A program made the translations under genes and the position numbers. The notes under the pieces are model-generated. The model saw only the letters and a list, made by a program, of their open reading frames with translations, was not told the origin of the DNA and made no database searches. DNA of 26,923 nucleotides, from the NCBI GenBank assembly GCA_040389905.1, contig JAZJZK010000054.1, forward strand, positions 1-26,923. Reading direction: 5' to 3'. The stretch comes from Gemmatimonadota bacterium. Lineage in GTDB: Bacteria; Gemmatimonadota; Gemmatimonadetes; Gemmatimonadales; Gemmatimonadaceae. Positions 3,000-26,552 of the stretch are shown piece by piece. Position 1 is the stretch's first letter. Each line of letters starts with the position of its first letter.

Positions 3000-3043
3000 C
3001 GCAGGTCCCTCACACCAACCTCCTTTATATGGAGAGCACAACG

Positions 3044-6223: not shown

Positions 6224-6233
6224 GCGCACGCAC

Positions 6234-7826: not shown

Positions 7827-9163
7827 CGTCTCTTCAAACAGCAGGTGCGGGCCCTTCGTTTCACTCAGGGCGACAAAACAACCATGGTCGTTCCACTCGT
7901 CTTGTCGGCCTGCACCTGCTGTTGCGCAGTTCCACTCGTTTTGTCGCCCTGAGCGGAGCGAAGGGCCCGCACGTGTTGTTGTCCATACTCTGTGTTGCGA
8001 TGTTGCAGACGGTTGGCGCACAATCGCCGCCCACGATCGTGTGGCGCGGCGAGCTGCTGGCGCGATCCAAGGCCCTGGTCGCGTCGAATGATCCGTCCTC
8101 GCGCGCTGCATTCGCAAAGCTCCAGCGTGATGCGAAGCAGCAACTCGACGCACCAATCGTCGCCGTCACCGATAAGAAGTCGCTGCTGCCGCCGAGTGGC
8201 GACAAGCACGACTATTTCTCACTGAGTCCGTATTGGTGGCCCGACCCCGCCAAGGCCGACGGGCTCCCGTACATCCGTCGCGACGGCGAGACCAATCCGG
8301 AAAGCAAGAAAGATCTCGACCGGCCACGCCTCGGCGCGATGGTCGACAACGTGGGCACGCTCGCCTTCGCGTACTATTTCACCGGCGACGAGCGGTACGC
8401 GATCCGCGCAGGAAAGCAGCTGCGTGCCTGGTTTCTCGATGCCGACACACGAATGACGCCGCACCTGCACTACGGGCAGCTCGTGCGTGGGAACCCGAAG
8501 GAGCGCGGTAGCGCCATCATCGATACGCACAACTTCATCGACGTCGTGGATGCGGCGCAGCTTCTGTTGGGATCGAACGGGTGGACCACAACAGATCACG
8601 AAGCGCTGCGCGCGTGGATGAAGCAATACAACACGTGGCTCCTGGAATCGGACAACGGAAAGGACGAGTGGGACGCGCCCAACAATCACGGTTCGTGGTA
8701 CGCCGCGCAGACGGCAACCCTCGCCCTCTTCAGTGGCGATACCTCACGCGTCCGATCCATCGTCAGTGATGCGAAGGCGCGCATCGGAGCGCAGATCAAG
8801 CCCGATGGGCAGCAGCCGGTGGAACTCGAGCGCACGCGTTCGATGCATTACAGTGGCTTCAACGCCGATGCGCTCTCGCGGCTCGCTGAAGTGGGGCGTT
8901 GGGTGAACGTCGACCTCTGGCACTACGAGGCGCCGGAAGGCGGTAGCATCAAGAAAGCGGTCGATCATCTCGCGAACTACGTCGCGCGGCCGAAGGAGTG
9001 GCCGGGCAAGCAGATTGACGCGGTCGAGCCGGATTTCATCGTCGAAGTGATGCGACGCACGGAGGCGGCGCTCGGAAAGTCGCTCTACGCTGCCACGTAC
9101 CCAAAGCTCGATTCGAAGCTGGTGAACGAATCGCGCGGTGTGCTCTTGTATCCCGTAAAATGA
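7823..9163 (+). CDS. Polysaccharide lyase, Alginate_lyase (PF05426) fold, PL38-like; secreted
   Basis: Motifs PPSGDKHDYFSLSPYWWP, YIRRDG..NP, NNHGSWY and ELERTRSMHYS.FN. ATG 7823 overlaps the SusD stop (ATGA). An alternative GTG start lies at 7973, just before the hydrophobic signal core. Confidence 0.88.
   Translation: MTSLQTAGAGPSFHSGRQNNHGRSTRLVGLHLLLRSSTRFVALSGAKGPHVLLSILCVAMLQTVGAQSPPTIVWRGELLARSKALVASNDPSSRAAFAKLQRDAKQQLDAPIVAVTDKKSLLPPSGDKHDYFSLSPYWWPDPAKADGLPYIRRDGETNPESKKDLDRPRLGAMVDNVGTLAFAYYFTGDERYAIRAGKQLRAWFLDADTRMTPHLHYGQLVRGNPKERGSAIIDTHNFIDVVDAAQLLLGSNGWTTTDHEALRAWMKQYNTWLLESDNGKDEWDAPNNHGSWYAAQTATLALFSGDTSRVRSIVSDAKARIGAQIKPDGQQPVELERTRSMHYSGFNADALSRLAEVGRWVNVDLWHYEAPEGGSIKKAVDHLANYVARPKEWPGKQIDAVEPDFIVEVMRRTEAALGKSLYAATYPKLDSKLVNESRGVLLYPVK
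7845..7972. repeat. REP-like palindromic element within the 5' end of the lyase ORF
   Basis: gtgcgggcccttcg-tttca-ctcagggcgacaaaac (7845-7879) is inverted as gttttgtcgccctgag-cggag-cgaagggcccgcac (7938-7972). An internal direct repeat gttccactcgtYttgtcg occurs at 7890 and 7929. Confidence 0.8.
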
Positions 9164-11343: not shown

Positions 11344-11365
11344 TCGGACGCAAGTGGAACTCGAC

Positions 11366-11455
11366 TGTCATCCCGAGCGAAGTCGAGGGATCTGCACTTA
11401 TCACCAGCGTACGAGGTGCAGACCCCTCGACTCGCTGCGCTCGCTCGGGGTGACA
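11366..11455. repeat. REP-like palindromic element (long hairpin)
   Basis: tgtcatcccgagcga-agtcgagggatctgcac ... gtgcagacccctcgact-cgctgcgc-tcgctcggggtgaca forms a near-perfect long stem-loop. It shares the gtcNYCCYGAGCG(A/G)AG core with the element at 7845-7972. Confidence 0.82.
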
Positions 11456-11504
11456 ATGGCTCGCTCCGTCGTGCGGGACGACAACTCAAGCCTAAGGCTA
11501 TTGA

Positions 11505-12263
11505 ATGCAAGTAGATCTCAAGAATAAAGTCGCCATCGTCACCGGCGGCGCACGCGACATCGGCCGCGCGATCACGCTCAAGCTCGCACAGAGCGGCGCA
11601 TCCGTCGTCGTGAACTACCTCAGCAGCGCGACGAAGGCGAACGAGCTCGTTGGCCAGATCTACGCCAGCGGTGGCAAGGCAATCGCCGTGAAGGCGGATG
11701 TCTCGAATGGTGCAGACGTCAAACGCATGATTGACGAAACGCGTGTCGCGTTTGGCGACTCGATCGACATCCTTGTCAACAATGCCGGCGGCCTTCTCGC
11801 GCGCAAGAAGCTCGACGAAATGGACGCGGCCTTCTGGGACCAGGTCATGGCGCTCAATGTCCGGAGCGTCTTCCTCGTCACGCAGGCCGTGGTACCGCTC
11901 ATGCCACCTGGGTCCGCGATCGTGAATCTCGCGTCGCTCGCCGCCCGCGACGGTGGCGGTGGCGGAGCCATGGCGTACTCGGCGGCGAAGGGCGCCGTGC
12001 TCACGCTCACGCGCGGGCTCTCGAAGGAGCTCGCCCCCAAGCGTATCCGTGTGAATGCCGTGTCGCCGGGCATGATCGACACAACCTTCCACGACACCTT
12101 CACCAAGCCGGAGATTCGGCAGGCGACAGCAGCGCGCACCTCCGTGGGCCGCGAAGGCACTGCCGAGGATGTGGCAAACGCAGTGCTCTTTCTCGCATCG
12201 GATGCGTCGGCGTACATCACCGGCGACTCTGTCGAGATCAACGGCGGGTTGTACTTCATCTGA
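11505..12263 (+). CDS. Short-chain dehydrogenase/reductase, likely DEH (4-deoxy-L-erythro-5-hexoseulose uronate) reductase
   Basis: Motifs TGGARDIG, NNAGG, catalytic YSAAK and RVNAVSPG. It sits directly after PL17 and before kdgF, as in alginate loci. Confidence 0.82.
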   Translation: MQVDLKNKVAIVTGGARDIGRAITLKLAQSGASVVVNYLSSATKANELVGQIYASGGKAIAVKADVSNGADVKRMIDETRVAFGDSIDILVNNAGGLLARKKLDEMDAAFWDQVMALNVRSVFLVTQAVVPLMPPGSAIVNLASLAARDGGGGGAMAYSAAKGAVLTLTRGLSKELAPKRIRVNAVSPGMIDTTFHDTFTKPEIRQATAARTSVGREGTAEDVANAVLFLASDASAYITGDSVEINGGLYFI

Positions 12264-12610
12264 TGCCGACACGCGGACCATTCGTTCTCGCCAGTGAAAT
12301 TGGCTGGGAGAAAGTAAGCGATGGCGTTCGACGCCAGGTACTCGGTCATGGGACCGATCTCATGATGGTCCGCGTCGAATTCAAGAAAGGCGCAGTTGGC
12401 GCGCTGCATCACCATCCGCACCGGCAGGCGACGTACATCGTCGCCGGCCGTTTCGAGGTCACTGTGGGCGACGAGCTCCACGAGCTCGCTCACGGCGATT
12501 GCTTCTATGCGCCGAGCGACGTGCCGCACGGCGTCCGCGCGCTGGAGGACGGCGAGTTGGTCGATGTGTTCACGCCCGTGCGCGACGACTTCCTTGCTCC
12601 GGTGAAATAA
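12263..12610 (+). CDS. kdgF: Cupin protein, KdgF-like (linearises unsaturated monouronates)
   Basis: Motifs GVRRQVLG, HHHPHRQ, PSDVPHG and DVFTPVRDDFL. TGATG coupling to the SDR gene. Confidence 0.85.
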   Translation: MPTRGPFVLASEIGWEKVSDGVRRQVLGHGTDLMMVRVEFKKGAVGALHHHPHRQATYIVAGRFEVTVGDELHELAHGDCFYAPSDVPHGVRALEDGELVDVFTPVRDDFLAPVK

Positions 12611-13881
12611 TGTCCCAGAAAGTGCGGGGCCTGCGGTGGTGGATCGTGGGGATGATCTGTCTCGTCACGATCATCAACTACATCGATCGCCAGACGCTCT
12701 CCGTGCTCGCTCCGACAATCCGCGAGCAGTTCGGGATGAGCAACGTTTCGTACTCACGCGTCGTCACGATCTTCCTGCTGGGCTACACCATTTCGCAGGC
12801 CCTCTCAGGCAAGGTGCTCGACCGCATTGGCGTGCGTCGCGGCTTCATGGTCTTCGTCGGTATCTGGACGATCGCCTCGATGCTGCACGCCACGGCACGC
12901 AACGTCTATCAGCTCGCGGTGTTTCGCTTCATCCTCGGCATCGGCGAAGCAGGCAACTGGCCCGGCGCGGCCAAGGCAGTGGCCGAGTGGTTCCCGGTGA
13001 AGGAACGCGCGTTCGGGATGTCGATCTTCAATGGTGGGTCGACGATTGGGGCCGTCGTCGCGCCGCCGGTCATCGTGTGGGTCGCGCTGCACTATGGATG
13101 GCGCTATGCGTTCTTCATCGGCGCAATTCTGTCGACTCTCCTGATGGTGCTGTGGTATTTCTTCTATCGATCACCAGCCGAGCATCCGAATTTGTCGGAC
13201 TCGGAACTCGCATACATCACGTCCGATCAGCCGTCGACGGATGTCGCTGGGGCGGTCTCGCGTCGCCCTTGGGCCTCGCTCTTCGGGTATCGGCAAGTGT
13301 GGGCCGTTGTGGCGGCTCGCTTCTTCAGTGATCCGATCTGGTGGTTCCTCATCGCGTGGCTGCCCAACTACCTGAAGACCGCGCGTGGGTTCAGCCTCGC
13401 GCTCATCGGCCTGCTGGCGTGGGTGCCATTCCTGTTTGCGGACATCGGCAACTTGACTGGCGGTGCTGTGAGCAGCCTGCTCATTCGTCGCGGATGGACC
13501 GTCGACCGGGCGCGCAAGGCGGTCCTCGGACTGAGCTCACTCATGGTCCCGCTCGGCGTAGTCGGCGTGGTCACGGCCCAGAGCGATGCGGTCGTCATCG
13601 CGTCGATCAGCATGATCGCGTTCGCGTTTCAAAGCTGGATCGTGAACATGCACACGATCCCGTCGGACTGCTTTCCGAAACAGGACGTGGGCTCAGTGTT
13701 TGGGATTGGTGGAACCGCGGCCGGCATTGCGAGCATGCTCTTCACGCTGCTCGTCGGATATGTGGTCGACCACTTCTCCTACACGCCGGTGTTCATCATG
13801 GTGGGCGTGATGGCTCCGCTCGCGGCCGTGTTGTTCTTCTCGATCATGGGGCGGATCGAACGTGTGGAGTCGGTAACCTGA
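12610..13881 (+). CDS. MFS transporter, ExuT/hexuronate (ACS) family
   Basis: Motifs RWWI...TIINYIDRQ, RFILGIGEAGNWPGAAKAVAEWFP.KERA and DPIWWF...WLP.YL, with many TM segments. ATG 12610 overlaps the kdgF TAA. Confidence 0.9.
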   Translation: MSQKVRGLRWWIVGMICLVTIINYIDRQTLSVLAPTIREQFGMSNVSYSRVVTIFLLGYTISQALSGKVLDRIGVRRGFMVFVGIWTIASMLHATARNVYQLAVFRFILGIGEAGNWPGAAKAVAEWFPVKERAFGMSIFNGGSTIGAVVAPPVIVWVALHYGWRYAFFIGAILSTLLMVLWYFFYRSPAEHPNLSDSELAYITSDQPSTDVAGAVSRRPWASLFGYRQVWAVVAARFFSDPIWWFLIAWLPNYLKTARGFSLALIGLLAWVPFLFADIGNLTGGAVSSLLIRRGWTVDRARKAVLGLSSLMVPLGVVGVVTAQSDAVVIASISMIAFAFQSWIVNMHTIPSDCFPKQDVGSVFGIGGTAAGIASMLFTLLVGYVVDHFSYTPVFIMVGVMAPLAAVLFFSIMGRIERVESVT

Positions 13882-13896
13882 TCCAGAAGCATTCGC

Positions 13897-14073
13897 GCGC
13901 CGGCACATTGAACGCGGATTGTGCGGATGGAAAAGAAGAACATCGATACAGCGTGAAATACGGAATGCGCTTTCGTCAATTACTCCTCGGCGAGATGCAT
14001 CTGTCGCACCTCACCGAAGAAATCAGTGCTTCGCAGTTGAAATCTGCTCAATCCGCGTTCCATGTGCCGGCGC
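13897..14073. repeat. Inverted-repeat element (32-bp arms) between the convergent MFS and vapC genes
   Basis: gcgccggcacattgaacgcggattgtgcggat (13897-13928) matches the reverse complement of 14042-14073 with 3 mismatches. It has the same GCGGAT/ACGGAT unit style as 1654-1740. Confidence 0.78.
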
Positions 14074-14077
14074 ACAT

Positions 14078-14473
14078 TCAGCAAAGCCGATGCACCCCAG
14101 AGACGCTGTCGAATCCCGCGTCGAAGCTCATGATCTGCTCGACTTGATATCGCTGCATGATAGCGACATGAAGCGCATCCCGTGCCGACAGTTGGGGCAA
14201 GTTCAGCATGAGCGTCTTGGTTCGCATCAGATCCGCCTGCTCGACCGGATACACATGGTCCACCACGGCGAGTAGCGCGTCGAACGCCGGCTGAATGGCG
14301 TCTCGCCGGCCGATGGACGAATAACGATGCAGGATTTCCTGGAGCACCTCCGAATCAGTGAGTAACCGTTCGCCGCGTGCGATGGCCCGCTCGAGAAGTA
14401 GGCGCGACGCATCCTTATGGGGATGCTGCGCGCCTACGAGGTACATGGGAATGTTCGAATCGACGAAGATCAC
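14078..14473 (-). CDS. vapC: VapC-family PIN-domain ribonuclease toxin
   Basis: Motifs MIFVDSNI, EVLQEIL, LSARDALHVA and SFDAGFD supply the PIN acidic residues. Overlaps the upstream small gene by 4 nt. Confidence 0.9.
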   Translation of the reverse strand: MIFVDSNIPMYLVGAQHPHKDASRLLLERAIARGERLLTDSEVLQEILHRYSSIGRRDAIQPAFDALLAVVDHVYPVEQADLMRTKTLMLNLPQLSARDALHVAIMQRYQVEQIMSFDAGFDSVSGVHRLC

Positions 14474-14727
14474 TCGGGGCCGCCGGACAAATACCCGTGT
14501 TCGATTTCTCCGAGCATTTGATCGATATCACCAACGGGATACTGGTACTGCGCGGCCTCCCGCACGGCCATCAGCTTCCGATGCTGATCGGCAGGTGGTT
14601 CGCTCTGCCGAGCACGACGCAATTCCTGTCGCACCCATTCCGCAACAGTCATCCGCTTGCGTTTAGCGGCTTCTCGAATTTGAGCCATCTCGTCGTCCTC
14701 GAAGAGAACCTGAAGTCTGACAGTCAT
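14470..14727 (-). CDS. vapB: VapB-type antitoxin (RHH/CopG-like)
   Basis: 85 aa with an N-terminal beta-strand and helices (RLQVLF..DEMAQIREAAKRKRMTVAEWVRQEL). Directly upstream of vapC. Confidence 0.82.
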   Translation of the reverse strand: MTVRLQVLFEDDEMAQIREAAKRKRMTVAEWVRQELRRARQSEPPADQHRKLMAVREAAQYQYPVGDIDQMLGEIEHGYLSGGPE

Positions 14728-14762
14728 GTCATGAGTGTAATTAACTCATGCGCATGAGTCAA
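14728..14762 (-). promoter_or_regulatory. vapBC sigma70 promoter with overlapping palindromic operator; leaderless transcript
   Basis: The minus strand reads TTGACT(14762-57)-17 nt-TACACT(14739-34)-6 nt-ATG(14727). A perfect 16-bp palindrome ACTCATGCGCATGAGT lies at 14744-14759, with a third CATGAGT half-site at 14730-36. Confidence 0.8.
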
Positions 14763-14900
14763 CTGGCCGGTACGTGCGGGAGCTGCCCTATGCTCGCGCT
14801 TGACGACAGGGGCAGCAACGCGTACATACAGTATCGATCCGCCGATGTTGTCTGCTGACTTGTTGAGCGCGGCTAACTCATTACCCCTCATAGCGTTCCA

Positions 14901-16163
14901 GTGACGCCGCTCGACGCACAAGCAACTGCGCAGGCAGGCCTGCTCTCGCCAGATTCCATTCGCGAAACCCTCGAAAAGGGGCTCGCCGGCAAGTTTGCGG
15001 GGCAGAATCTCCTCGTGCTCATTCCCGACCACACGCGCTCGCTCCCCCTGCCGTTCCTTTTCCGGGCGCTCGTGGAGGTGCTACGCGAAGCGAAACACAT
15101 CGATTTCATGGTGGCACTGGGGACGCACCCGCCGCTGCCTCCTGAGAGTCTCAACAAGCTGGTCGGGATCACCGAAGCCGAACGGGCTGCGGAGTTTGCG
15201 CACATCGGTTTGCTGAACCACGCCTGGGATGACCCGGCGTCACTCGCGTCGCTCGGGATCATGGCGCAGGACGAGATTCGCGCCCTCGCGGGCGACCACT
15301 GGCACTCGTCGCTTCCCGATCAGGTCAACATTCGCCTCAACAAGGCGGCGCTCGAGCACGATCACATACTCATTTTGGGCCCGACCTTCCCGCACGAGGT
15401 CGTGGGATTCTCAGGGGGCGCCAAGTACCTGTTCCCAGGTATTTCCGGCAGCGACATGATCGACGCGACGCATTGGCTTGGCGCGCTCGCCGGTGTGGTC
15501 GGCACGATCGGCATCAAGGAGACGCCGGTGCGCGCGATGATCCACGCCGCTGCCGAGCGACTGACGACTCCGGTTACGTTGATCGCGCTGACGGTTGAGG
15601 GTCCTGGACTTGCGGGTCTCTTCATCGGTAATCATCGCGACGCGTGGGCGGCCGCGGCCGATCTCTCTGCGCAGCGCCATGTGCATTGGTGCGACAAGCC
15701 TTTTCAACGAGCACTATCCTGCGCGCCGCCGATGTACGACGAGCTGTGGACCGGTGCCAAGGCGATGTACAAGCTCGAACCCGCGATGGCACTCGGGAGT
15801 GAAGTCGTGATCTACGCACCGCATCTCGATACGGTCAGCCATGTGCACGGCAAGTACATCTATGAAGTGGGCTATCACATCCTACCGTACTTCCTTGCCG
15901 ACTGGGAGCGCTTCAAGCACCTGCCGCTCGGCGTGCTCGCGCATAGCACGCATCTGCGAGGGTCAGGTGTGATGGAGGGCGGCGTGGAGCGTGCGAATGT
16001 GCGTGTCACGCTCGCGAGCAAGATCTCGGCGGCGGATTGTGAGATGCTGAATGTCGGCTATCTCGATCCTGATTCGATTGATGTGGAAGAATGGAAGGGT
16101 CGTGAGGATGAGGGGATTCTCTTCGTGCCAAAAGCTGGAGAGACGCTGTATCGAGTGAGATAA
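14901..16163 (+). CDS. LarA-family (lactate racemase / DUF2088) alpha-hydroxy-acid racemase/epimerase
   Basis: Motifs IPDHTRS, ALGTH, LLNHAWDD and PHEVVGFSGGAKYLFPGISG, which include the conserved His residues and the Lys of nickel-pincer enzymes. GTG start. Confidence 0.85.
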   Translation: MTPLDAQATAQAGLLSPDSIRETLEKGLAGKFAGQNLLVLIPDHTRSLPLPFLFRALVEVLREAKHIDFMVALGTHPPLPPESLNKLVGITEAERAAEFAHIGLLNHAWDDPASLASLGIMAQDEIRALAGDHWHSSLPDQVNIRLNKAALEHDHILILGPTFPHEVVGFSGGAKYLFPGISGSDMIDATHWLGALAGVVGTIGIKETPVRAMIHAAAERLTTPVTLIALTVEGPGLAGLFIGNHRDAWAAAADLSAQRHVHWCDKPFQRALSCAPPMYDELWTGAKAMYKLEPAMALGSEVVIYAPHLDTVSHVHGKYIYEVGYHILPYFLADWERFKHLPLGVLAHSTHLRGSGVMEGGVERANVRVTLASKISAADCEMLNVGYLDPDSIDVEEWKGREDEGILFVPKAGETLYRVR

Positions 16164-16172
16164 AACGGAACA

Positions 16173-16492
16173 GCCTCAACGCAAAGGTCGCAGAGAACAG
16201 CAACGCCGCAGAGAACGCAGAGGACTTCGGAACAGTACGAGAAGTAAGTGTTTGGTGCAGACTCGCCTGGTGTGCAGTCCTCCGTGACCTCTGTGTTCTC
16301 TGTGGTTAAGGGCTCTTGACGAGCAAAGGGCAACTGCGGAACAGCTTTTTACCACAGAGGACACAGAGGAACACAGAGGACTACCGAATTGCAAGATCAT
16401 TGGTCGTTGCTTTAGTGCCATTTCCAATTGTTGACGCAGTCCTCTGCGCTCTCTGCGGCTGTTGCAGTTCTCTGCGACCTCTGCGTTAAGGC
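16173..16492. repeat. Nested double inverted repeat made of (C/G)CAGAG units
   Basis: Outer arms 16173-16226 and 16438-16492 are about 54 bp and near-perfect. Inner arms are 16276-16309 and 16349-16382 (accacagaggacacagagg type). Confidence 0.82.
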
Positions 16493-16574
16493 TTTGGCAG
16501 TTGCAGTTCCGGCTTTGCAATTGCAGTTCTATGCTCTAAGGGATCGGCGCATCGTTAGACGAGAGGATACACCA

Positions 16575-18005
16575 CTGGAAAAGGCTAATTTCGGCTTCAT
16601 GGGCATCGGCGTCATGGGCCACATGCTCGCGCTCAACATGGAGCGCAATGGATTTCGCGTCGCGATGTTCGACGTGACGCCGGGAAAGGCGAAAGCCCTT
16701 GCCGACAAGCATCCGGGACTCAATCTGATTCCATGCGAGACGATGGCGTCATTTCTCGAGACGCTGGAAACGCCGCGCCGAATCATGATGATGGTGCCAG
16801 CCGGCGCCCCGACGGACGCCGCGATCAATGGCATCAAGGACTCGCTCGAAAAGGGCGACATGCTCATCGATGGCGGCAATACATACTTCATGGATACCGA
16901 TCGCCGTTCACGCGAGCTCGAGGCGCACGGCATCGTGTACATCGGTACCGGAGTCTCCGGCGGAGAGCAGGGCGCGCTGTGGGGACCGAGCATCATGCCC
17001 GGCGGGCAGCGTGAAGCGTGGGAGCTGGCGGCGCCGGTCTTCCGCGCCATCGCCGCGAAGGCCGAAGACGGTGAGCCGTGCGTCGCGTATATGGGTCCGC
17101 GCGGCGCCGGACACTACGTCAAGATGGTGCACAACGGCATCGAGTACGGCGACATGCAGCTCATCGCCGAGATCTACGACCTGTTGCACCGCGGCCTCGG
17201 CATGTCGGCAATTGAACTCGCCGACCTCTTCGACGAATGGAATGCTGCGGAGCTGAAGTCGTATCTCATCGAAATCACCGCGGAAATTCTGCGTCACACC
17301 GATCCGGAGTCCGGCGTCCCACTCGTCGACGTCATCCTGGACGAAGCCGCAAGCAAGGGTACCGGAAAGTGGACGAGCCAGAACGCGCTGGACATTGGCG
17401 CGCCGATTCCTACGATCAACGCCGCCGTCGAGAGCCGCATTCTCTCGAGTCTCAAATCGCAACGAGTCGTCGCGAGCAAGGCCATTCGTGGCCCCACCGT
17501 CGAATTCTCGGGCGATCGCGACCGGCTGATCAAGGCCGCGCGTGAAGCGCTCTATGCGAGCAAGATCACATCATATGCGCAAGGGCTTGGTTTGCTCGCC
17601 GCCGCGTCCGCCGAGTACAAGTTCGACCTCAACCTCGGTGAGATCGCGAAGATCTGGCGCGCCGGCTGCATCATTCGCGCGAGTCTCCTCGGCGACATCA
17701 TGGCGGCGTACCAACGCAATCCAGCGCTCGCCAATCTCCTGCTCGACGATGCGTTTCGTGACGCCGTTGAAAGCCGTCAGGACGGATGGCGCTTCGCGAT
17801 TCAGTCGGCGATCGGCATGGGTATTCCCGTGCTCGCCCTCAGTGCCTCGCTCGCGTATTTCGACGGTTATCGCAGCGAGCGCCTTCCGGCGAACCTCACA
17901 CAGGCGCAACGCGACTACTTCGGTGCGCACACGTATCGGCGCATCGATCGCGAAGGCACGTTTCATACTGAATGGACCCCCGACTCAAAAGAGGACAACG
18001 CGTGA
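16575..18005 (+). CDS. gndA: 6-phosphogluconate dehydrogenase (decarboxylating), long form
   Basis: Motifs GIGVMG, MVPAG, IDGGN, GVSGGEQGA..GPSIMPGG, GHYVKMVHNGIEYGDMQ, KGTGKWT, IWRAGCIIR and QAQRDYFGAHTY. The probable start is CTG 16575, 7 nt after the RBS AGAGGA. Confidence 0.93.
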   Translation: MEKANFGFMGIGVMGHMLALNMERNGFRVAMFDVTPGKAKALADKHPGLNLIPCETMASFLETLETPRRIMMMVPAGAPTDAAINGIKDSLEKGDMLIDGGNTYFMDTDRRSRELEAHGIVYIGTGVSGGEQGALWGPSIMPGGQREAWELAAPVFRAIAAKAEDGEPCVAYMGPRGAGHYVKMVHNGIEYGDMQLIAEIYDLLHRGLGMSAIELADLFDEWNAAELKSYLIEITAEILRHTDPESGVPLVDVILDEAASKGTGKWTSQNALDIGAPIPTINAAVESRILSSLKSQRVVASKAIRGPTVEFSGDRDRLIKAAREALYASKITSYAQGLGLLAAASAEYKFDLNLGEIAKIWRAGCIIRASLLGDIMAAYQRNPALANLLLDDAFRDAVESRQDGWRFAIQSAIGMGIPVLALSASLAYFDGYRSERLPANLTQAQRDYFGAHTYRRIDREGTFHTEWTPDSKEDNA

Positions 18006-19084
18006 CGCACGGTCTCGATATTCGCACGGACGCATCGCTCGACTTCCTGTCGCTCGGCGCCATCATTCATCGTCTCGATCCTGGACAGATTCCGTTTCGC
18101 AAGGCGACGCAGTGCGCGATTCACGTCAGTGGCGGCGAATTCAACTGTGCGGCGAACCTTGCCGATGCGTTTCGCCTTGAAACCGCCGTCGCGACGGCGA
18201 TGGTCGACTACCCGATCGGTGATCTGATCGCCGAGCGTGTGCGCGCGATGGGCGTGCGTCCCTTCTACAAGCGCTTCAAGCACAATGGCGTGAACGGCCC
18301 CAACATGGCGACGGTTTACAGCGATCGCGGTCATGGTGTGCGAGCGCCCGTCGTGTTTTACAACCGTTGCAACGAAGCGGCCGCGCAGCTCAAGCCCGGC
18401 GACTTCGACTGGAAAGACATCTTCTCGCGCGGCGTGAAGTGGTTCCACAGCGGCGGCATCTTCGCGTCGTTGTCGGACACGACGGGTGAATTGATCATCG
18501 AGGGGATGAAGGCGGCACATGAAGCGGGCGCCATCACGTCGTTCGATCTCAATTACCGTGCGAAGCTCTGGAACATCTGGGGCGGTGGCGAGAAAGCGCA
18601 ATCGGTCATCAAGCGGATTGTCGAGAACGTCGACGTGCTCGTCGGCAACGAAGAGGACCTTCAACTCGGACTTGGCATTCCGGGTCCGGAAGTCGCCGCG
18701 GCATCGAAGCTCGATCCCAGTGCCTTCTTCGGCATGATCGGCGAAGTGGTGAATCGGTATCCTGGCATCAAGGGCGTCGCGACCACGCTGCGCGAAGTGC
18801 ACTCGACGAATCACCACAGCTGGGCCGCGGTCGCGTGGCTCGATGGCAAGACGTACACTTCGCCAACCTGTGAGCTAAACATCATCGATCGCGTCGGCGG
18901 CGGCGATGGCTTTGCGTCGGGCTTCTTTTATGGGTTGTTGAGTGATGCCGAACCGCAGGAAGCGGTAAATCTCGGGTGGGCGCATGGTGCATTGCTCACG
19001 ACCTATCCGGGCGACACGAGCATGGCGACGCTCGAAGAAGTGCGCGCGTTCGCGAAGGGAGGGTCGGCGCGCATTCAGCGGTGA
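18002..19084 (+). CDS. kdgK: PfkB-family sugar kinase, 2-keto-3-deoxygluconate kinase-like
   Basis: Motifs GGEFN.A, SFDLNYRAKLW, GNEED and DRVGGGDGFASG. The GTG start overlaps the gnd stop (GTGA), with RBS AGAGGA upstream. Confidence 0.82.
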   Translation: MTHGLDIRTDASLDFLSLGAIIHRLDPGQIPFRKATQCAIHVSGGEFNCAANLADAFRLETAVATAMVDYPIGDLIAERVRAMGVRPFYKRFKHNGVNGPNMATVYSDRGHGVRAPVVFYNRCNEAAAQLKPGDFDWKDIFSRGVKWFHSGGIFASLSDTTGELIIEGMKAAHEAGAITSFDLNYRAKLWNIWGGGEKAQSVIKRIVENVDVLVGNEEDLQLGLGIPGPEVAAASKLDPSAFFGMIGEVVNRYPGIKGVATTLREVHSTNHHSWAAVAWLDGKTYTSPTCELNIIDRVGGGDGFASGFFYGLLSDAEPQEAVNLGWAHGALLTTYPGDTSMATLEEVRAFAKGGSARIQR

Positions 19085-19087
19085 GGA

Positions 19088-19115
19088 ACAGGGGACAGGA
19101 GACAGGAGACAGGGC
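19088..19115 (+). repeat. Short tandem repeat, 4 x 7-nt ACAGG(A/G)(G/C)
   Basis: acagggg acaggag acaggag acagggc fills most of the kdgK-lyase spacer. Confidence 0.7.
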
Positions 19116-19122
19116 ATACGGC

Positions 19123-20355
19123 ATGACTGCGCTCAGGGTGAGCACCCTACTCCTGTTCGTTTCGGCGTGTGTCGCGCCGAATGTGTCCGTAGTGCCCGTG
19201 TCAGCAGCACTGGCGAGGCCGCGAACCATTCTCATGCGCGGAGAATGGCTCGCGGAAGCGAAAGCCGAGTTGCAGCAGGGCAACGAGGAGCTGCAGGCCA
19301 GCCTCGCCGTCCTGCGCGACAGCGCGGAGTCTGCACTCGGAGCGGCGCCGCTGTCGGTCATGCAGAAGAAGCGGATGCCGCCGAGTGGCAACAAGCACGA
19401 CTTCATGAGCATGGCGCCGTATTGGTGGCCAGATACCACCAAGCCAGGTGGTCTCCCATTCGTCCGCCGCGATGGCGTGGTGTACCCGGAGAGTCGCCTC
19501 GATCATGATGGGCTTCGCCTCCAGAAGACGATCGACCGTGTCGAGGCACTCGCGCTCGCGCATTTCCTGACCGGCGACGCCCGGTATTCGCGAAAGGCCG
19601 CGCAGGATCTTCGCGTGTTCTTCCTGGACACCGCGACCGCGATGCATCCGCATCTCGAGTACGGTCAGGCCGTACTCGGCGTCAACGACGGACGGGGAAC
19701 GGGGATCATCGATACTCGCGACCTGCCACGTCTCGTCGATGCTGTTCGTCTACTCGACGGCGCACCGGGGTGGACCCCGACTGATTCGGCAGCGATGGTC
19801 GCGTGGTCGTGGGGCTATCTCAAGTGGCTCGTTCAGAGCAAGAACGGGAAGGAAGAACGTGCCGCCACGAACAACCATGGCACGTTCTACGACGCGCAGC
19901 TCCTCGCGTTGGCGCTCCATGTGGGCGACACGCTCTTTGCGCGCACGGTCGTCGATAGCGCGAGAGCGCGCATTGCGTTCCAGATACGCGCCGATGGTAA
20001 GCAGCCGCTCGAGCTGGAACGGACGCGGCCGTTGCACTACAGCGTTTTCAATCTCGACGCCTTTACGATGCTCGCTGAAATGGGGCGCCAAGTTCGTGCG
20101 GACCTCTGGCGTTTCACTGCAGCGAATAGCGCGAGCATCGAGAAAGCACTGCGTTTTGTCGCGCCGTACGCGAACACGGCCGTGAAATTCCCTGCGGTCG
20201 ACTTGACGCCGGTCGGGACCGCAATCTTTCTGCTGCCACTTCGCCGAGCCTCGGCGGCGCTTCGCGACGCCGAATTGATTCGTGCCTTGCAACAATTGCC
20301 GTGGAGAGAGCGTGCGTATGGCATCTCGCGGTTCGCATATCCCTCGGTGCCGTAA
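19123..20355 (+). CDS. Second PF05426 (PL38-like) polysaccharide lyase; predicted lipoprotein
   Basis: Lipobox in MTALRVSTLLLFVSA-C. Motifs PPSGNKHDFMSMAPYWWP, FVRRDG, NNHGTFY and ELERTRPLHYS.FN. Clear paralogue of 7823-9163. Confidence 0.88.
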   Translation: MTALRVSTLLLFVSACVAPNVSVVPVSAALARPRTILMRGEWLAEAKAELQQGNEELQASLAVLRDSAESALGAAPLSVMQKKRMPPSGNKHDFMSMAPYWWPDTTKPGGLPFVRRDGVVYPESRLDHDGLRLQKTIDRVEALALAHFLTGDARYSRKAAQDLRVFFLDTATAMHPHLEYGQAVLGVNDGRGTGIIDTRDLPRLVDAVRLLDGAPGWTPTDSAAMVAWSWGYLKWLVQSKNGKEERAATNNHGTFYDAQLLALALHVGDTLFARTVVDSARARIAFQIRADGKQPLELERTRPLHYSVFNLDAFTMLAEMGRQVRADLWRFTAANSASIEKALRFVAPYANTAVKFPAVDLTPVGTAIFLLPLRRASAALRDAELIRALQQLPWRERAYGISRFAYPSVP

Positions 20356-21387: not shown

Positions 21388-21416
21388 TTGTTTTTGTCGC
21401 CGGGTTCTTGTATGTT
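21388..21416 (+). promoter_or_regulatory. Putative sigma70 promoter for the leader-tRNA transcript
   Basis: TTGTTT(21388-93)-17 nt-TATGTT(21411-16). The predicted +1 falls a few nt before ATG 21426, and there is no Shine-Dalgarno. Confidence 0.55.
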
Positions 21417-21425
21417 GTCACTACG

Positions 21426-21497
21426 ATGACGATGAATTCCGCGCTCAACCGCAATAATCTCAATAATAATCGGCCCTCCTCGCGGAGACCTGGTTAG
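21426..21497 (+). CDS. Asn-rich leader (attenuator) peptide MTMNSALNRNNLNNNRPSSRRPG
   Basis: 23 codons with 7 Asn (6 AAT, 1 AAC), five of them within six consecutive codons (21453-21470). The stop codon lies inside the 5' arm of a predicted antiterminator. It is below the ORF-track cutoff and was read by hand. Confidence 0.8.
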   Translation: MTMNSALNRNNLNNNRPSSRRPG

Positions 21498-21559
21498 CGC
21501 ACACGCGTCACACAGATGCCAGCGCCTTCCAGGTCAGACCTGGAAGGCGTTCTTGTTTT
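21487..21559 (+). promoter_or_regulatory. Attenuator with mutually exclusive antiterminator and intrinsic terminator
   Basis: Terminator: CGCCTTCCAGGT(21523-34)-cag-ACCTGGAAGGCG(21538-49) followed by TTCTTGTTTT(21550-59). Antiterminator: GACCTGG(21487-93) pairs with CCAGGTC(21529-35), and GCGC(21497-500) pairs with GCGC(21522-25). Confidence 0.78.
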
Positions 21560-21561
21560 GA

Positions 21562-21634
21562 TGGGGTGTAGATCAACTGGCAGATCGCCTGACTGTTAAT
21601 CAGGAAGTTGCAGGTTCGAGTCCTGCCGCCCCAG
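21562..21634 (+). tRNA. tRNA-Asn(GTT), atypical sequence, CCA not encoded
   Basis: Cloverleaf with acceptor TGGGGTG/CGCCCCA plus G discriminator, D-arm GATC-aactggca-GATC, anticodon arm CCTGA-ctGTTaa-TCAGG and T-arm GCAGG-ttcgagt-CCTGC. Confidence 0.95.
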
Positions 21635-21667
21635 TACATGTAAGATATTTCAGGACAATATGTTACC

Positions 21668-21701
21668 GAAAGCCGCCACGGTGAGAACTGTGGCGGCTTT
21701 C
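21668..21701 (+). terminator. Intrinsic terminator-like hairpin after tRNA-Asn
   Basis: GAAAGCCGCCACGG-tgagaa-CTGTGGCGGCTTTC forms a 14-bp stem with one G-U pair, with short A/T runs at its base. Confidence 0.75.
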
Positions 21702-22333: not shown

Positions 22334-23440
22334 ATGACTCAACCAATCCGTGATTCCGAACGGCAGACCCACCTCAGGCTGGTCTATAGCCAAGAGAACT
22401 TCGCGAGCGTCCCGTTACCGGAACGCGCCAGCAAGTACCCTGAATTGCGATATATGGGGTCAAAGAACCGACTCCTTCCCTGGATTCACGGGGTCCTACA
22501 GGGCCTTAAATTCGAGACGGCGGCGGATCCATTCTGTGGCAGCGGCTGTGTAGCGTATCTCCTCAAGACCATGGGAAAGCGCGTCGTCGCATCTGATTTT
22601 CTGAACTTCCCAGCAGTGCTCGCTCTCGCCGCCGTGGCCAATAACCGGTATCAGCTCGATGGTCCCGCGGTGAAGCGACTGCTCGCCTCACGCCGAGGTG
22701 GCCCACACTTCATCGAGCGAACTTTCGAAGGGATCTTCTACACTCCCGAGGACCTACGTTTCCTCGACCGCGTTTCCGGAAACCTTGCCCATCTTGAGCA
22801 CGATCATCAGCGCGCGCTTGCTCGGGCGGCACTTATGCGCTCGTGTTTGAAGAAGCAGCCGCGCGGTGTGTTCACAGTGTCAGGAGACTTGTCGCGCTAC
22901 GACGACGGCCGGCGCGATCTGCGTCTCTCGCTTGAGGAGCATTTTCTCGAACAAATCCAGGCATTCAATCGCATTGTTTTCGACAACGGGCACCGTCACA
23001 CCGTGAAGCGTGCGGACGTTTTCTCCTTGAAACCACGCGGTATCGATCTTGTCTATCTGGATCCACCGTACGTTCCACGGTCAGACGATAACTGCTACAT
23101 GAAGCGATATCACTTCCTTGAAGGGCTCTCGCTCTACTGGAAGGGTGTTCGCATCATGGAGGACACGAAAGTAAAGAAGATCGAGAAACCCTACACACCG
23201 TTTAGTTACCGCAAGACTGCGATCGAGGCGTTTGATCGTTTGTTCCATCTCTATAGAGATAGCACGATCGTCCTCTCGTACAGCTCAAATGGCTTTCCCG
23301 ATCGCGAGGAGCTTGAGACCTTACTGCGACGGTACAAGGGGAATGTCACCGCGTACGAGAAGCCACATCGCTATCACTTTGGTACGCATGCGGGCGTGGA
23401 GCGGTCCGAGGTTCGCGAGTACCTGATAGTGGGTACATAA
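22334..23440 (+). CDS. N6-adenine DNA methyltransferase (D12/Dam-like, alpha-type motif order)
   Basis: YMGSK (motif X), DPFCGSG (motif I) and DLVYLDPPY (motif IV). The start is taken at ATG 22334 because the upstream extension to 21995 looks non-coding. Confidence 0.9.
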   Translation: MTQPIRDSERQTHLRLVYSQENFASVPLPERASKYPELRYMGSKNRLLPWIHGVLQGLKFETAADPFCGSGCVAYLLKTMGKRVVASDFLNFPAVLALAAVANNRYQLDGPAVKRLLASRRGGPHFIERTFEGIFYTPEDLRFLDRVSGNLAHLEHDHQRALARAALMRSCLKKQPRGVFTVSGDLSRYDDGRRDLRLSLEEHFLEQIQAFNRIVFDNGHRHTVKRADVFSLKPRGIDLVYLDPPYVPRSDDNCYMKRYHFLEGLSLYWKGVRIMEDTKVKKIEKPYTPFSYRKTAIEAFDRLFHLYRDSTIVLSYSSNGFPDREELETLLRRYKGNVTAYEKPHRYHFGTHAGVERSEVREYLIVGT

Positions 23441-24277
23441 GTGCAATTCATTGCTCAGGATCTCGACGAGATCGTCTTAAGTCTGCAACGGATCAATGTC
23501 GAATGGAAAGACGACACGGCGCGTCGTGTCATCGACCGGCTTCAGAACTTTCCTGGGAAAGAGACATACTCAGCGGCCGATCTTGAGGCGTTGCTCGATT
23601 CACACTTCGACGATGGCGTTCTGATCCTCCGTCTCTTTCTGGGACTATCAAAGGATCAGTTCACGGGCGTGTTGACGTCCACACTTGACCCGCTCGGGAT
23701 TGGAATAAAGAGCTACAAAGCAAACCGACAAGCGTTCCTCGAAGCGCTCATCGGAATCGGGGCACTTGAGGCCATGGCAGTTGAGGTCAATCGAAAACTG
23801 CATTGGAGCGACGTGCTGCTCGAAAGACTTCGAAGTGGTCGAGGCAGCGCGATCTCGGGGCAAAGGCGAGGTCGGGGGGGAGAAGACTTCGCAGAAGTCA
23901 TCGTAGCAAAAGTGTTCGGCAGCGTGTTCGATACCCGCGCGACCTTCACGGGACCGTACTCGAAGAAAGCGAAATGCGACTTCGCAATCCCATCGAAAGA
24001 CGAACCTCGGATCGTGATCGAGTCGAAGGTCTACGGCGCCACTGGTTCTAAAATGACGGATATCATCGGCGATGCGGAGCAGATCATCGCTGCCAAGCGA
24101 CCGGATACTGCTTTCCTGCTTTTCACCGACGGCCTAACCTGGAAGCAGCGAAAGAGTGATCTGCGAAAGCTAGTCGAGCTTCAGAATGCTGGCGGTATTA
24201 CTCGCATTTATACCACAGCCATGGTAGCGCAGTTCGAGGCTGATCTACGGCAACTCAAGTCGGAGTACGGCCTCTAG
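23441..24277 (+). CDS. Type II restriction endonuclease, PD-(D/E)XK, DpnII/MboI-like C-terminal domain
   Basis: Motifs RGRGGE, CDFAIP...IVIESKVY.ATGSK and FTDGLTW. The GTG start abuts the MTase stop. Confidence 0.78.
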   Translation: MQFIAQDLDEIVLSLQRINVEWKDDTARRVIDRLQNFPGKETYSAADLEALLDSHFDDGVLILRLFLGLSKDQFTGVLTSTLDPLGIGIKSYKANRQAFLEALIGIGALEAMAVEVNRKLHWSDVLLERLRSGRGSAISGQRRGRGGEDFAEVIVAKVFGSVFDTRATFTGPYSKKAKCDFAIPSKDEPRIVIESKVYGATGSKMTDIIGDAEQIIAAKRPDTAFLLFTDGLTWKQRKSDLRKLVELQNAGGITRIYTTAMVAQFEADLRQLKSEYGL

Positions 24278-24404
24278 ATTAGCGAAGCGGTGCGGACGAA
24301 CTCTTATCCTCACGGCGACACGTGTCGCTGACGAGTAGTATGTTTGCTGGCCCTGCACGGACTGCATCTCCGTGGAGTGCTCAGATCCCATTCCAAACCT
24401 GTTA

Positions 24405-26552
24405 ATGACGAACCCTTGGCCGCCCGAGACCCTTCAGGGATTCCAGCAAGCCGCACAATCGCTGAAGCTCTATCGACGGGCCGAGCTACAGGACCTCGAG
24501 CAGGGAGGGTCTCTCGTCGAAGAGCTCTATGTCGATCCGCTCCCAGCGGACAACGCATTTCAGACAGTGCTGAGCCCACACACAACGTTCGTCATCGGTC
24601 GAAAAGGGACCGGAAAATCAACAATCTTCCAGCGCTTACAATACGAACTCCGCAAGAGCAAATATCAGACGTCGGCCTACCTCGACATAAAAACGGTCTA
24701 CGAATCCTCACAAGTTGATCCTGAGCTGCTCGCCCGCGTCCAAGAGCTGGATGCGGCCCTACCGGCCGCCAGTTTAGAACGGCTGCTTCTATACCGCGAG
24801 TTTCTCCGCGCAGTCGTCACCGAGATCAAGTCGGAGCTCACAAAGCGCATTCAAGCGTCAATATGGGAGAAGGTGAAGGAACACTTCTCGGGCAACATCG
24901 CCGAGCTGTTTGAAGGACTAGATACTCTGTTGGAGGAAGCCAACGAGGACCGATTCATCAACATTATCGGTCTGCGGTCCGCCGACCGTAAGGCAAAGAA
25001 GAGTGCGGCGAAGCGCGCGTCGACAAAGGCTGGCGCTGCTGGCGAACTAGGAACGGCGCCAAAGGCATCCGCCACCGTCGAGCGGACCAGTGAATCCAGT
25101 GCCGCGGACGAAAACGAAGTTGAGTACACAGACATTCTCCTGCGCTCCTTCAACATCAAAGAGATAGTCGCGCGACTTCGTGAAATCCTTGATCAACTCG
25201 GGATTCGATACCTCTACGTTTTGGTCGACGACTTTTCGGAACTACCTGAAGAGGCGATGCGGGTTGTTGTCGATGTGCTCCTTGCACCGCTCAACAATTG
25301 GTCGGATGAGTTTATCAAGTTCAAAATCGCCGCCTACCCCGGTCGAGTGTACTTCGGTGCGATCGACAAAACGAAGGTTGACGAGCTTTATCTCGACATG
25401 TATCGGCTGTACGGCGGCGGTGACGTGGGACGGATGGAAGATAGCGCAATCGATTTCACCAAGCGCTTGGTCGAGCGGCGCATTCAGCATTTTTGCAATC
25501 GCGACGCTGCCGACTTCTTTGAGAACCCGGACGCGGAGGTGTGGCAGCACCTCTTTTACGCATCGATGGCCAATCCCCGGAGTCTCGGGTACCTACTGCA
25601 CTACCTCTACGAGTCGCATCTAATTCGCGGTCGACGGATTAGCGTTTCCGCCATCCAAGAAGCCGCGCAACGATATTACGCCGAGAAAATCGAGTCGTAC
25701 TTCACCATCGGCAAATTCCTGCATGAATCCTTCGAGGAACGATCGTCGATCTTTAGTCTCAAGGAACTGCTTGAAGCACTCGTCACCCGCGCGCGCGAAC
25801 TCCGCAGTCAAGGTGGATCCGACCTCATCCGCAAAATCTCCGGTCGGCCGCCCACCAGCCACTTTCACGTTCCGGTCGCCTACGAGCCGCTCTTTTCGAG
25901 CCTTGAGCTGAACTTCTTTCTCACGAAGTACTTCGAAATGACTGACCGATCATCGAGAAAGGTCAGTGTCTATGCGCTGAACTACGGTCTCTGTTCCAAA
26001 TACACAATCCGCTTCGGCAGGCCAACGGGCGAGCGTGAATTTCGGACGTATTTCATCGAGCGGGGTTTTGACTATTCACCGATCCTGCTTGCCTACTTGG
26101 CGAAGAATCAGGAGATCGTGTGTGACGCGTGTAGGGCGACGTACGCGTTTGAGAATCTGGACGCTCTTAAATTCTACGGCATGCGTTGCCGCGAGTGCAA
26201 GGACGGCACCGTTCGGGTAACAAACCTTTCTCGTAAGTACGCTGATGAGCTCCGCGCAGTGAGCCAGGACGCGCTGTTGCCGGCCACAGAACTCGGGATC
26301 TTGCAGACCTTGCATGCTGAAGACGGTCCTATTCGCGCTGCTCAGATTGCCGGTGAGCTGGACTGCTCCTACCAACTCGTAGGCAAACGTGGCAAGGCAT
26401 TGGCCGAGCGCGGGCTCGTAACGCGCACCATGGCGGGTGGCTTTCGACTATTCGAAATCGCCAAGTTGGCAACGACTGCGTATTTTTCGAATCCTGCTCG
26501 GAACGATTTGCAGATGGAATCGGAACCTCCTAGTTCTGGGACTGCTGAGTGA
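24405..26552 (+). CDS. Large P-loop NTPase with C-terminal Zn ribbon and winged HTH
   Basis: Walker A GRKGTGKS, Walker B YVLVDDFSE, a STAND/AAA-like SMANPR motif, CDAC...CREC, and a wHTH (RAAQIAGELDCSYQLVGKRGKALAERGLV). Confidence 0.8.
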   Translation: MTNPWPPETLQGFQQAAQSLKLYRRAELQDLEQGGSLVEELYVDPLPADNAFQTVLSPHTTFVIGRKGTGKSTIFQRLQYELRKSKYQTSAYLDIKTVYESSQVDPELLARVQELDAALPAASLERLLLYREFLRAVVTEIKSELTKRIQASIWEKVKEHFSGNIAELFEGLDTLLEEANEDRFINIIGLRSADRKAKKSAAKRASTKAGAAGELGTAPKASATVERTSESSAADENEVEYTDILLRSFNIKEIVARLREILDQLGIRYLYVLVDDFSELPEEAMRVVVDVLLAPLNNWSDEFIKFKIAAYPGRVYFGAIDKTKVDELYLDMYRLYGGGDVGRMEDSAIDFTKRLVERRIQHFCNRDAADFFENPDAEVWQHLFYASMANPRSLGYLLHYLYESHLIRGRRISVSAIQEAAQRYYAEKIESYFTIGKFLHESFEERSSIFSLKELLEALVTRARELRSQGGSDLIRKISGRPPTSHFHVPVAYEPLFSSLELNFFLTKYFEMTDRSSRKVSVYALNYGLCSKYTIRFGRPTGEREFRTYFIERGFDYSPILLAYLAKNQEIVCDACRATYAFENLDALKFYGMRCRECKDGTVRVTNLSRKYADELRAVSQDALLPATELGILQTLHAEDGPIRAAQIAGELDCSYQLVGKRGKALAERGLVTRTMAGGFRLFEIAKLATTAYFSNPARNDLQMESEPPSSGTAE

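What the first reader, a model, noticed from the sequence alone, without database searches (positions are those of the whole stretch)
21388..21701. Asn-sensing leader-peptide attenuator that appears to control a tRNA-Asn gene (tRNA feedback switch)
Seen in sequence: a promoter-like TTGTTT-17-TATGTT precedes a 23-aa ORF with 7 Asn codons (NRNNLNNN cluster). This is followed by a 12-bp perfect terminator with a U-tract ending 2 nt before a tRNA whose anticodon (GTT) reads those same Asn codons, and then a second terminator. The octamer AGACCTGG occurs twice (21486-93 in the leader's 3' end and 21536-43 in the terminator's loop and 3' arm), so two competing partners exist for CCAGGT. Established: this is the geometry of his/trp/pheST-type ribosome-mediated attenuation. 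Inference: a ribosome reaching the TAG (21495-97) masks the antiterminator arm and transcription terminates. A ribosome stalled on Asn codons (21453-70) leaves 21487 onward free, giving read-through and tRNA-Asn synthesis. Classical attenuators control biosynthetic or synthetase genes. I do not know of a described Asn leader whose sole output is the cognate tRNA, though I cannot search the literature here.
Basis: partly seen in the sequence, partly recalled or inferred. Interest (0 to 1): 0.95.

Follow-up and report, generated by a model that had tools for sequence, protein, structure and literature searches.

The report
Asparagine-codon switch controlling spare tRNA
A tiny asparagine-rich gene and a conserved two-way RNA hairpin sit in front of a second, divergent asparagine tRNA gene in this bacterium and many Gemmatimonadales relatives, so the cell likely makes this spare tRNA only when ribosomes read asparagine codons slowly, a control I found in no paper searched.

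Summary
Observation confirmed at the stated coordinates. The 23-codon ORF is the only 7-Asn short ORF among 69,647 in the genome. The architecture is conserved: 96 of 199 unique homologous tRNA loci carry an Asn-rich leader, and 95 of these 96 have a terminator behind it. Both mutually exclusive helices covary. Asn codons peak nine codons before the stop, which would leave the antiterminator arm free. The same scaffold precedes pheA and a sulfite-reductase-like gene with Phe- or Cys-rich leaders. Against: no expression data; 103 of 199 copies lack the leader; at equilibrium the terminator wins here, so the switch would be kinetic; one clade adds an aminotransferase behind the tRNA. No paper found (six searches). 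This scan noted the same logic before in CPR bacteria and phages, on unrelated DNA. Verdict: new variant of classical attenuation.

The parts
21388..21416 (+). Promoter-like site (-35 TTGTTT, 17 nt, -10 TATGTT); start of transcription predicted at or a few bases before the leader ATG
   Evidence: Sequence; not called by the scanner; TTG-N3/16-18/TA-N3-T found upstream in 56 of 64 homologues, spacer 17 in 54 of the 56
21426..21497 (+). Leader ORF, 23 aa, 7 Asn (6 AAT), likely leaderless (ATG 9 nt after the -10, no Shine-Dalgarno seen)
   Evidence: homologous leaders are 23% Asn against 2.6% genome-wide
21447..21470 (+). Asn sensing cluster NRNNLNNN, last Asn nine codons before the stop
   Evidence: Asn at codon -9 in 53 of 64 homologues, none at -1 to -3
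21487..21500 (+). Antiterminator 5' arm (21487-93 pairs with 21529-35; 21497-500 pairs with 21522-25), overlapping the stop codon
   Evidence: Fold of 21470-21540, -28.5 kcal/mol, z -3.1; covariation
21521..21559 (+). Attenuator terminator: 12-14 bp stem and U-rich tail; its 5' arm and loop are shared with the antiterminator
21562..21634 (+). tRNA-Asn(GTT), second (type B) isodecoder; U1-A72, G73, D-stem GATC/GATC, no encoded CCA
   Evidence: 46 of 74 columns identical to the housekeeping copy at G000:C53:30199-30273
21668..21701 (+). 15-bp hairpin after the tRNA, likely the end of the transcript (weak U tail)
   Evidence: z -6.8; not called by the scanner

Best explanation
This is likely a ribosome-mediated transcription attenuator whose output is a second, spare tRNA-Asn gene: an Asn-rich short ORF overlaps one arm of a conserved two-state RNA switch, and slow reading of its Asn codons would let transcription pass the terminator into the tRNA. 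Shown in sequence: promoter-like site, ORF, two mutually exclusive and covarying helices, tRNA, and a separate housekeeping tRNA-Asn. Inferred: transcription starts at about the ATG, so a ribosome loads at once on a leaderless RNA. With plentiful Asn-tRNA it runs to the TAG, covers 21487-21500, and the 21521-51 terminator forms. When AAU/AAC decoding is slow it pauses at 21453-70, the freed arm captures the terminator's 5' strand as it leaves the polymerase, and read-through gives a precursor that is processed to tRNA-Asn. The new tRNA speeds up the same codons, which would close a negative-feedback loop. Because AAT is favoured, the sensor most likely reports the level of working Asn-tRNA (charged, intact, able to wobble-read AAU), not only free asparagine.
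For: Leader with >=3 Asn in 96 of 199 unique loci, terminator behind it in 95 of 96, promoter upstream of the ORF in 81 of 96 and downstream of its stop in 2 of 96. Cognate arm pairs -15.9 kcal/mol against -12.7 for arms swapped between loci, 0 of 10,000 permutations as good, pairing peaks at the last 12 nt of the ORF (66 loci). Antiterminator on 47 aligned loci: 81.8% paired, 9 of 13 pairs with two-sided change, 48 cells, 0 of 500 shuffles on cells, slid controls at most 41%; terminator 92.6%, 8 of 11 pairs. Three-way changes across antiterminator arm, shared arm and terminator arm (C-G-C 25 against T-A-T 7; G-C-G 43 against A-T-A 2), and the signal holds in 25 representatives under 75% identity (82.8% against 75.2%, 0 of 5,000). 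Masked folds: with the ribosome on the last Asn codon 11 shared bases are captured (-25.9 kcal/mol), with it at the stop none (-2.1); means over 64 loci -24.2 against -5.1. Asn codons sit 7-16 codons before the stop. The same RNA model hits Phe/Tyr/Trp-rich and Cys-rich leaders before prephenate-dehydratase-like and NirA-like genes, a built-in positive control. Housekeeping tRNA-Asn pattern in 76 of 80 genomes that hold this tRNA type.
Against: No transcript ends, ribosome data or reporter data. Full-length equilibrium folding gives terminator probability 1.0 in both states at this locus, and under 0.5 in the stalled state for only 9 of 64 loci, so the switch must rest on folding order. At-stop folds still sequester 6 or more shared bases in 30 of 64 loci, though weakly. 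103 of 199 loci have no such leader, and 28 of these have a promoter-like site within 70 nt of the tRNA, so the tRNA need not be regulated this way. Two of the five shuffle measures for the antiterminator were reached by 21 and 13 of 500 shuffles, and the loci are kin. The promoter here is a poor consensus match. More tRNA would not cure a lack of free asparagine, so the physiological trigger is open.
Confidence: 0.82

Rival explanations
1. It is an ordinary amino-acid-supply attenuator whose real target is an enzyme behind the tRNA (an aspartate-aminotransferase-like gene); the tRNA is a passenger, and this locus has lost the enzyme.
For: A class I/II aminotransferase starts 41 nt after the tRNA with no hairpin between in 8 loci of one clade; its N-terminus is seen by eye in two more short loci, one from another genus (L135, L206). 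A SerA-like gene follows in 2 loci. The same scaffold precedes the aminotransferase alone in G117 and G119.
Against: Of 75 downstream ORFs scanned, 52 had no Pfam hit and the other 15 non-aminotransferase hits fall in many families; the tRNA is the only constant. The window has a 15-bp hairpin after the tRNA and the genome has no close orthologue of that aminotransferase (best 30% identity; genome 85% complete). The leaders before the lone aminotransferase have no Asn in the frame found. All aminotransferase hits are below the curated cut-offs, so the substrate is unknown.
Confidence: 0.07
2. The spare tRNA is the dedicated substrate of the indirect route (Asp-tRNA-Asn amidated by GatCAB), so it acts as the 'biosynthetic gene' of an Asn attenuator.
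For: gatB is present. The housekeeping tRNA-Asn here has an extra D-loop base at 20a and the regulated one does not; PMC1635274 (passages read) reports that adding U20A to tRNA-Asn lowers amidation almost tenfold. By hand count, 17 of 18 genomes with both tRNAs and a 20a housekeeping copy have the leader.
Against: Only 18 of 56 genomes with both tRNAs have the 20a base, and 16 of the other 38 have the leader anyway (hand count); kin are not independent. No glnS over the cut-off, so GatCAB is explained by Gln-tRNA. asnS is in 79 of 80 genomes and two asnB-family genes pass the cut-off. The single AspRS reads RARDLGG; from recall, unverified here (one search found nothing, one search gave no residue), Leu at that place marks discriminating enzymes.
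Confidence: 0.06
3. The terminator simply dampens a constitutive promoter, and the Asn-rich ORF is an A/T-rich by-product that is not translated.
For: Terminator wins at equilibrium here. Some leaderless copies keep a promoter followed by a hairpin and U tail with no ORF between (for example L092, L125, G244, G257).
Against: An in-frame start, an Asn cluster at a fixed distance from the stop and a covarying second helix are all conserved. Other two-codon amino acids in the leaders use C-ending codons 48:10 while Asn uses AAT 181:118, so it is not general A/T richness.
Confidence: 0.05

Closest known systems
Classical leader-peptide transcription attenuators (trpL, hisL, pheL, thrL, leuL; pheM-pheST) (recalled, textbook)
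   Same: Short ORF rich in one amino acid, control codons just upstream of an antiterminator arm, mutually exclusive terminator with U tail; the same scaffold serves pheA- and NirA-like genes in relatives.
   Different: The regulated product is a tRNA that reads the control codons, not an enzyme or synthetase; the leader appears leaderless; I found no published Asn leader of this kind.
Polycysteine leaderless short-ORF attenuators of mycobacteria (10.1101/834739; abstract and section list read)
   Same: Leaderless short ORF rich in one amino acid acting as a ribosome-stalling sensor.
   Different: There stalling frees a ribosome-binding site of a protein gene (translational control); here a terminator stands before a non-coding gene.
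Inducible cryptic tRNA array of Anabaena sp. PCC 7120 (PMC8421152; abstract read)
   Same: tRNA set split into a housekeeping part and a spare part induced when translation is impaired.
   Different: A 23-tRNA horizontally spread array induced within a global response; a term search of the held text for 'attenuation' and 'leader' returned no hits (where other expected terms also returned none, so this is weak). Here one gene has its own codon-specific switch.
T-box riboswitches (PMC2494555 and PMC7778990; passages read)
   Same: Terminator/antiterminator choice set by the state of a specific tRNA.
   Different: T-boxes bind the tRNA directly and need no translation; no T-box match here; the passages seen name synthetase, transport and biosynthesis genes as targets, not tRNA genes.

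Membership tests
Leader-peptide transcription attenuator | Short upstream ORF enriched in control codons related to the downstream product | tested here: met
   7 of 23 codons Asn before tRNA-Asn; 96 of 199 loci
Leader-peptide transcription attenuator | Intrinsic terminator between the leader and the regulated gene | tested here: met
   95 of 96 leader loci
Leader-peptide transcription attenuator | Mutually exclusive antiterminator sharing a strand with the terminator | tested here: met
Leader-peptide transcription attenuator | Control codons placed so that a stalled ribosome frees, and a finishing ribosome masks, the antiterminator arm | tested here: met
   Asn peak at codon -9, none at -1 to -3; masked folds with an assumed 13-nt footprint
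Leader-peptide transcription attenuator | Promoter upstream of the leader and none between terminator and gene | tested here: met
   Consensus scan only: 81 of 96 upstream, 2 of 96 downstream of the stop; weak match at this locus
Leader-peptide transcription attenuator | Protector/pause hairpin (1:2 stem) upstream of the antiterminator | tested here: inconclusive
   A 4-bp CTCC/GGAG hairpin recurs by eye in alignment A2 and in the fold; not counted
Leader-peptide transcription attenuator | Translation-dependent, amino-acid-responsive read-through in vivo | not testable with these tools
   Only contigs of other strains were available
Leader-peptide transcription attenuator | Regulated gene encodes a biosynthetic enzyme or synthetase (true of the classical members) | tested here: not met
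   The gene is a tRNA, followed by a hairpin; an enzyme follows in a minority of relatives
T-box riboswitch | Stem I with specifier loop and T-box bulge | tested here: not met
   Only RF00005 reached a gathering score in the window
Functional tRNA-Asn | Cloverleaf, GUU anticodon, U1-A72, G73, conserved with compensatory stems | tested here: met
   82 distinct sequences with paired stem variants; charging itself not tested

The most novel reading that the evidence does not exclude
A self-monitoring tRNA backup: a leaderless AAU-codon test gene measures whether the housekeeping tRNA-Asn still decodes well (lost to cleavage, under-modification such as missing queuosine, or shortage) and switches on a structurally different spare tRNA-Asn that restores decoding. 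It would be a codon-specific repair loop built from a classical attenuator, kept across two families of Gemmatimonadales.
Probability: 0.35. Interest if true: 0.9.

Novelty: new variant of a known kind. Interest (0 to 1): 0.78.

Why it matters
Bacterial tRNA supply is usually described as set by promoters, growth rate and gene copy number (my own knowledge). A tRNA gene gated by how fast its own codons are read is a closed, codon-specific feedback loop that I found in no paper searched. This case sits in large-genome bacteria with a separate housekeeping copy, has covariation over dozens of loci, and comes with natural controls (leaderless copies; the same scaffold on pheA). It makes testable why some bacteria keep two very different tRNAs with one anticodon, and it gives a 140-nt portable sensor of Asn decoding.

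Tried and rejected
RNA evidence: 7 runs held 5-6% of the words; 4 were laid. Only the tRNA was covered, by short contigs of other strains at depth 2-24. Some run on upstream into terminator-like sequence of relatives, but contigs give no ends or strand and DNA carry-over is not excluded, so this is not counted as evidence. Rfam: nothing but the tRNA. A leader before asnS or aspS of this genome: none seen by eye; the RNA model finds only this locus strongly, plus one weak hit without Asn codons. Similar leaders before the other 45 tRNA genes of the genome: none. Origin of the second tRNA from another tRNA of this genome: no close match, best 51 of 73. The D-loop 20a idea holds in this genus and two others but not generally. 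Link to the presence of asnS: uninformative, 79 of 80 have it. The first automatic terminator score also passed 37 of 59 leaderless loci, so a stricter stem rule was used later, on leader loci only. L084 and L059 were dropped before alignment (stop or terminator not in register), L053 had no called stem, and the 17 rows of the second family were left out of A2 because they aligned out of register. Literature: (and 69 for the phylum) found no tRNA gene under leader-peptide attenuation; listings only were seen for those hits; the library lacks most subscription journals and older papers, and no supplements were read, so prior description is not excluded.

Full report
Observation. Folding 21470-21540, which lacks the terminator's 3' arm, gives the alternative: 21487-93 with 21529-35 and 21497-500 with 21522-25, -28.5 kcal/mol. 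The ORF is the only one with seven Asn among 69,647 short ORFs of the genome, and 1.4% of them have three or more. The scanner called neither the promoter nor the second hairpin.

Context. The locus lies after a TonB-like gene and before an adenine methyltransferase, a DpnII-like nuclease and an ATPase. The genome holds a second tRNA-Asn on contig C53 with a promoter-like site directly upstream and no leader. The two are 46 of 74 identical. The window's type was matched in 72 of 301 phylum genomes (one of them, G103, unpublished), and a looser pattern found divergent forms in 16 of 40 genomes that had scored negative. In 76 of 80 genomes chosen for it the housekeeping type is also present. So the regulated gene is a spare isodecoder.

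Conservation of the switch. Among 199 unique loci with at least 250 nt upstream, 96 have a 10-35 codon ORF with three or more Asn ending 40-200 nt before the tRNA; 95 of these have a terminator stem after the stop; 103 have no such ORF. Leaders occur in both main families. Cognate antiterminator arms pair better than arms swapped between loci (-15.9 against -12.7 kcal/mol, 66 loci, 0 of 10,000 permutations), and the pairing peaks at the last 12 nt of the ORF. On 47 aligned loci of the window's own subtype the antiterminator is 81.8% paired with two-sided changes in 9 of 13 pairs (48 cells, 0 of 500 shuffles; pair and type counts were reached by 21 and 13 of 500), and slid controls reach at most 41%. 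The terminator is 92.6% paired, 8 of 11 pairs with two-sided changes. Three positions change together across the two helices, and the signal persists in 25 representatives under 75% identity. These loci are kin and the structure came from one of them, so the numbers overstate independence. One of the 47 rows (L007, G012) is from an unpublished genome; one search excludes it.

Geometry. Asn codons lie 7-16 codons before the stop, peak at -9 (53 of 64) and never occupy the last three. With an assumed 13-nt footprint, a ribosome on the last Asn codon leaves the antiterminator arm free and the nascent RNA captures 11 shared bases (-25.9 kcal/mol); a ribosome at the stop leaves none (-2.1). Over 64 loci the means are -24.2 and -5.1, and six or more bases are captured in 61 against 30 loci. 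At full-length equilibrium the terminator still wins at this locus, and loses in the stalled state in only 9 of 64, so the decision would be kinetic. A TTG-17-TAnnnT site precedes 56 of 64 leaders, and in 43 of the 56 the first in-frame start follows 5-11 nt after it: the leader is likely translated from a leaderless RNA. A promoter-like site within 70 nt of the tRNA is seen in 2 of 96 leader loci but 28 of 103 leaderless ones.

Codon choice. Leaders use AAT 181 times and AAC 118 times; the genome uses AAT for 34% of Asn; other NNY pairs in the leaders end in C 48 times and in T 10 times. In 24 leader clusters the count is 72:44. The only anticodon is GUU, so AAU needs wobble reading; tgt is present. 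Selecting loci on three or more Asn inflates the Asn share but not the AAT:AAC ratio.

Independent definition and controls. A covariance model of the switch was run on 141 family genomes (57 with a match; one, G433, unpublished and not analysed). Of 28 top hits examined, 18 lie before tRNA-Asn and 15 of those have three or more Asn; some were in the training set. Seven strong hits lie before enzymes: prephenate dehydratase-like with a Phe/Tyr/Trp-rich leader, NirA-like with a Cys triplet, glutamate-synthase-like with Leu-rich leaders (three; one scanned, two by eye; one has three Asn) and an aminotransferase (two); three weak hits were uninformative (these family hits are below cut-off, some on partial proteins). 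The scaffold is therefore this lineage's ordinary attenuator, here wired to a tRNA.

What follows the tRNA. Of 75 downstream ORFs scanned, 8 are one clade's class I/II aminotransferase 41 nt after the tRNA, 2 are SerA-like, 13 fall in assorted families and 52 have no hit. The tRNA is the constant output. Duplicated 3' halves in three genomes suggest that the gene is also an integration site.

Mechanism and rivals. I commit to ribosome-mediated attenuation of a spare tRNA-Asn (0.82). The trigger is inferred: any slowing of Asn decoding would act, but extra tRNA helps mainly when working tRNA, not free asparagine, is short. The rivals are an enzyme-directed attenuator with a passenger tRNA (0.07), a tRNA reserved for GatCAB amidation (0.06; supported by the 20a base in this genus and by PMC1635274 passages; weakened by its absence in 38 of 56 genomes, by lack of glnS, and by a recalled, unverified AspRS signature), and a plain damping terminator (0.05).

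Comparison and novelty. It works like trp/his/phe attenuators (recalled) and meets each structural feature tested, except that the target is a tRNA. Related ideas in print are leaderless Cys attenuators in mycobacteria (10.1101/834739, abstract), an inducible tRNA array in Anabaena (PMC8421152, abstract) and T-boxes (PMC2494555, PMC7778990, passages). Searches returned no tRNA gene under leader-peptide attenuation; the library is incomplete and no supplements were read. Earlier notes of this scan describe the same logic in CPR bacteria and phages, one marked in doubt; none matches this DNA or names this phylum. They are unchecked leads and were not used as support. Verdict: real, conserved, new variant of a known kind; interest 0.78.

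Noticed in passing
window 22334-26552: D12-class adenine methyltransferase, DpnII-like nuclease and a Sll1717-like P-loop ATPase with a below-cut-off anti-phage family hit: a likely defence island just after the tRNA.
   Followed up: partly
L224 (G378), L235 (G417), L239 (G346): Same attenuator scaffold with Leu-rich leaders before a glutamate-synthase-large-subunit-like gene; an unusual pairing.
   Followed up: partly
L247 (G347) and L246 (G423): Classical-looking Phe/Tyr/Trp attenuator before a prephenate-dehydratase-like gene and Cys attenuator before a NirA-like gene.
   Followed up: partly
L244 (G119), L245 (G117): Scaffold before an aminotransferase without a tRNA; the frame ending at the conserved stop has no start of its own, while an overlapping ATG frame runs four codons further.
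   Followed up: no
23 of 199 type B tRNA loci, e.g. L010, L013, L027: C instead of A at position 38 of the anticodon loop (18 with leader, 5 without); could alter modification at 37 or nuclease sensitivity.
   Followed up: no
type B tRNA D-stem, window 21571-21586: Purine-11/pyrimidine-24 pair (GATC or GGTC stems) in 156 of 199 loci instead of the usual GCTC.
   Followed up: no
L092, L125, L197 (G244), L198 (G257): Promoter-like site followed at once by a hairpin and U tail, then the tRNA, with no leader ORF: possibly leader loss or another control.
   Followed up: no
L274, L275 (G008), L276 (G026), L277 (G072): Duplicated 3' halves of the type B tRNA, as left by integrating elements.
   Followed up: no
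L059: Leader with a stop six codons early but an intact downstream switch; L090-type and L188 (G090) loci keep the switch with one Asn or none called.
   Followed up: no
window 1884-20355: LacI-type regulator, SusC/SusD-like pair by eye, alginate-lyase and sugar-acid catabolism genes: a polysaccharide-use cluster.
   Followed up: no
G000:C56:5100-5194: A tRNA-Sec is called in this genome.
   Followed up: no
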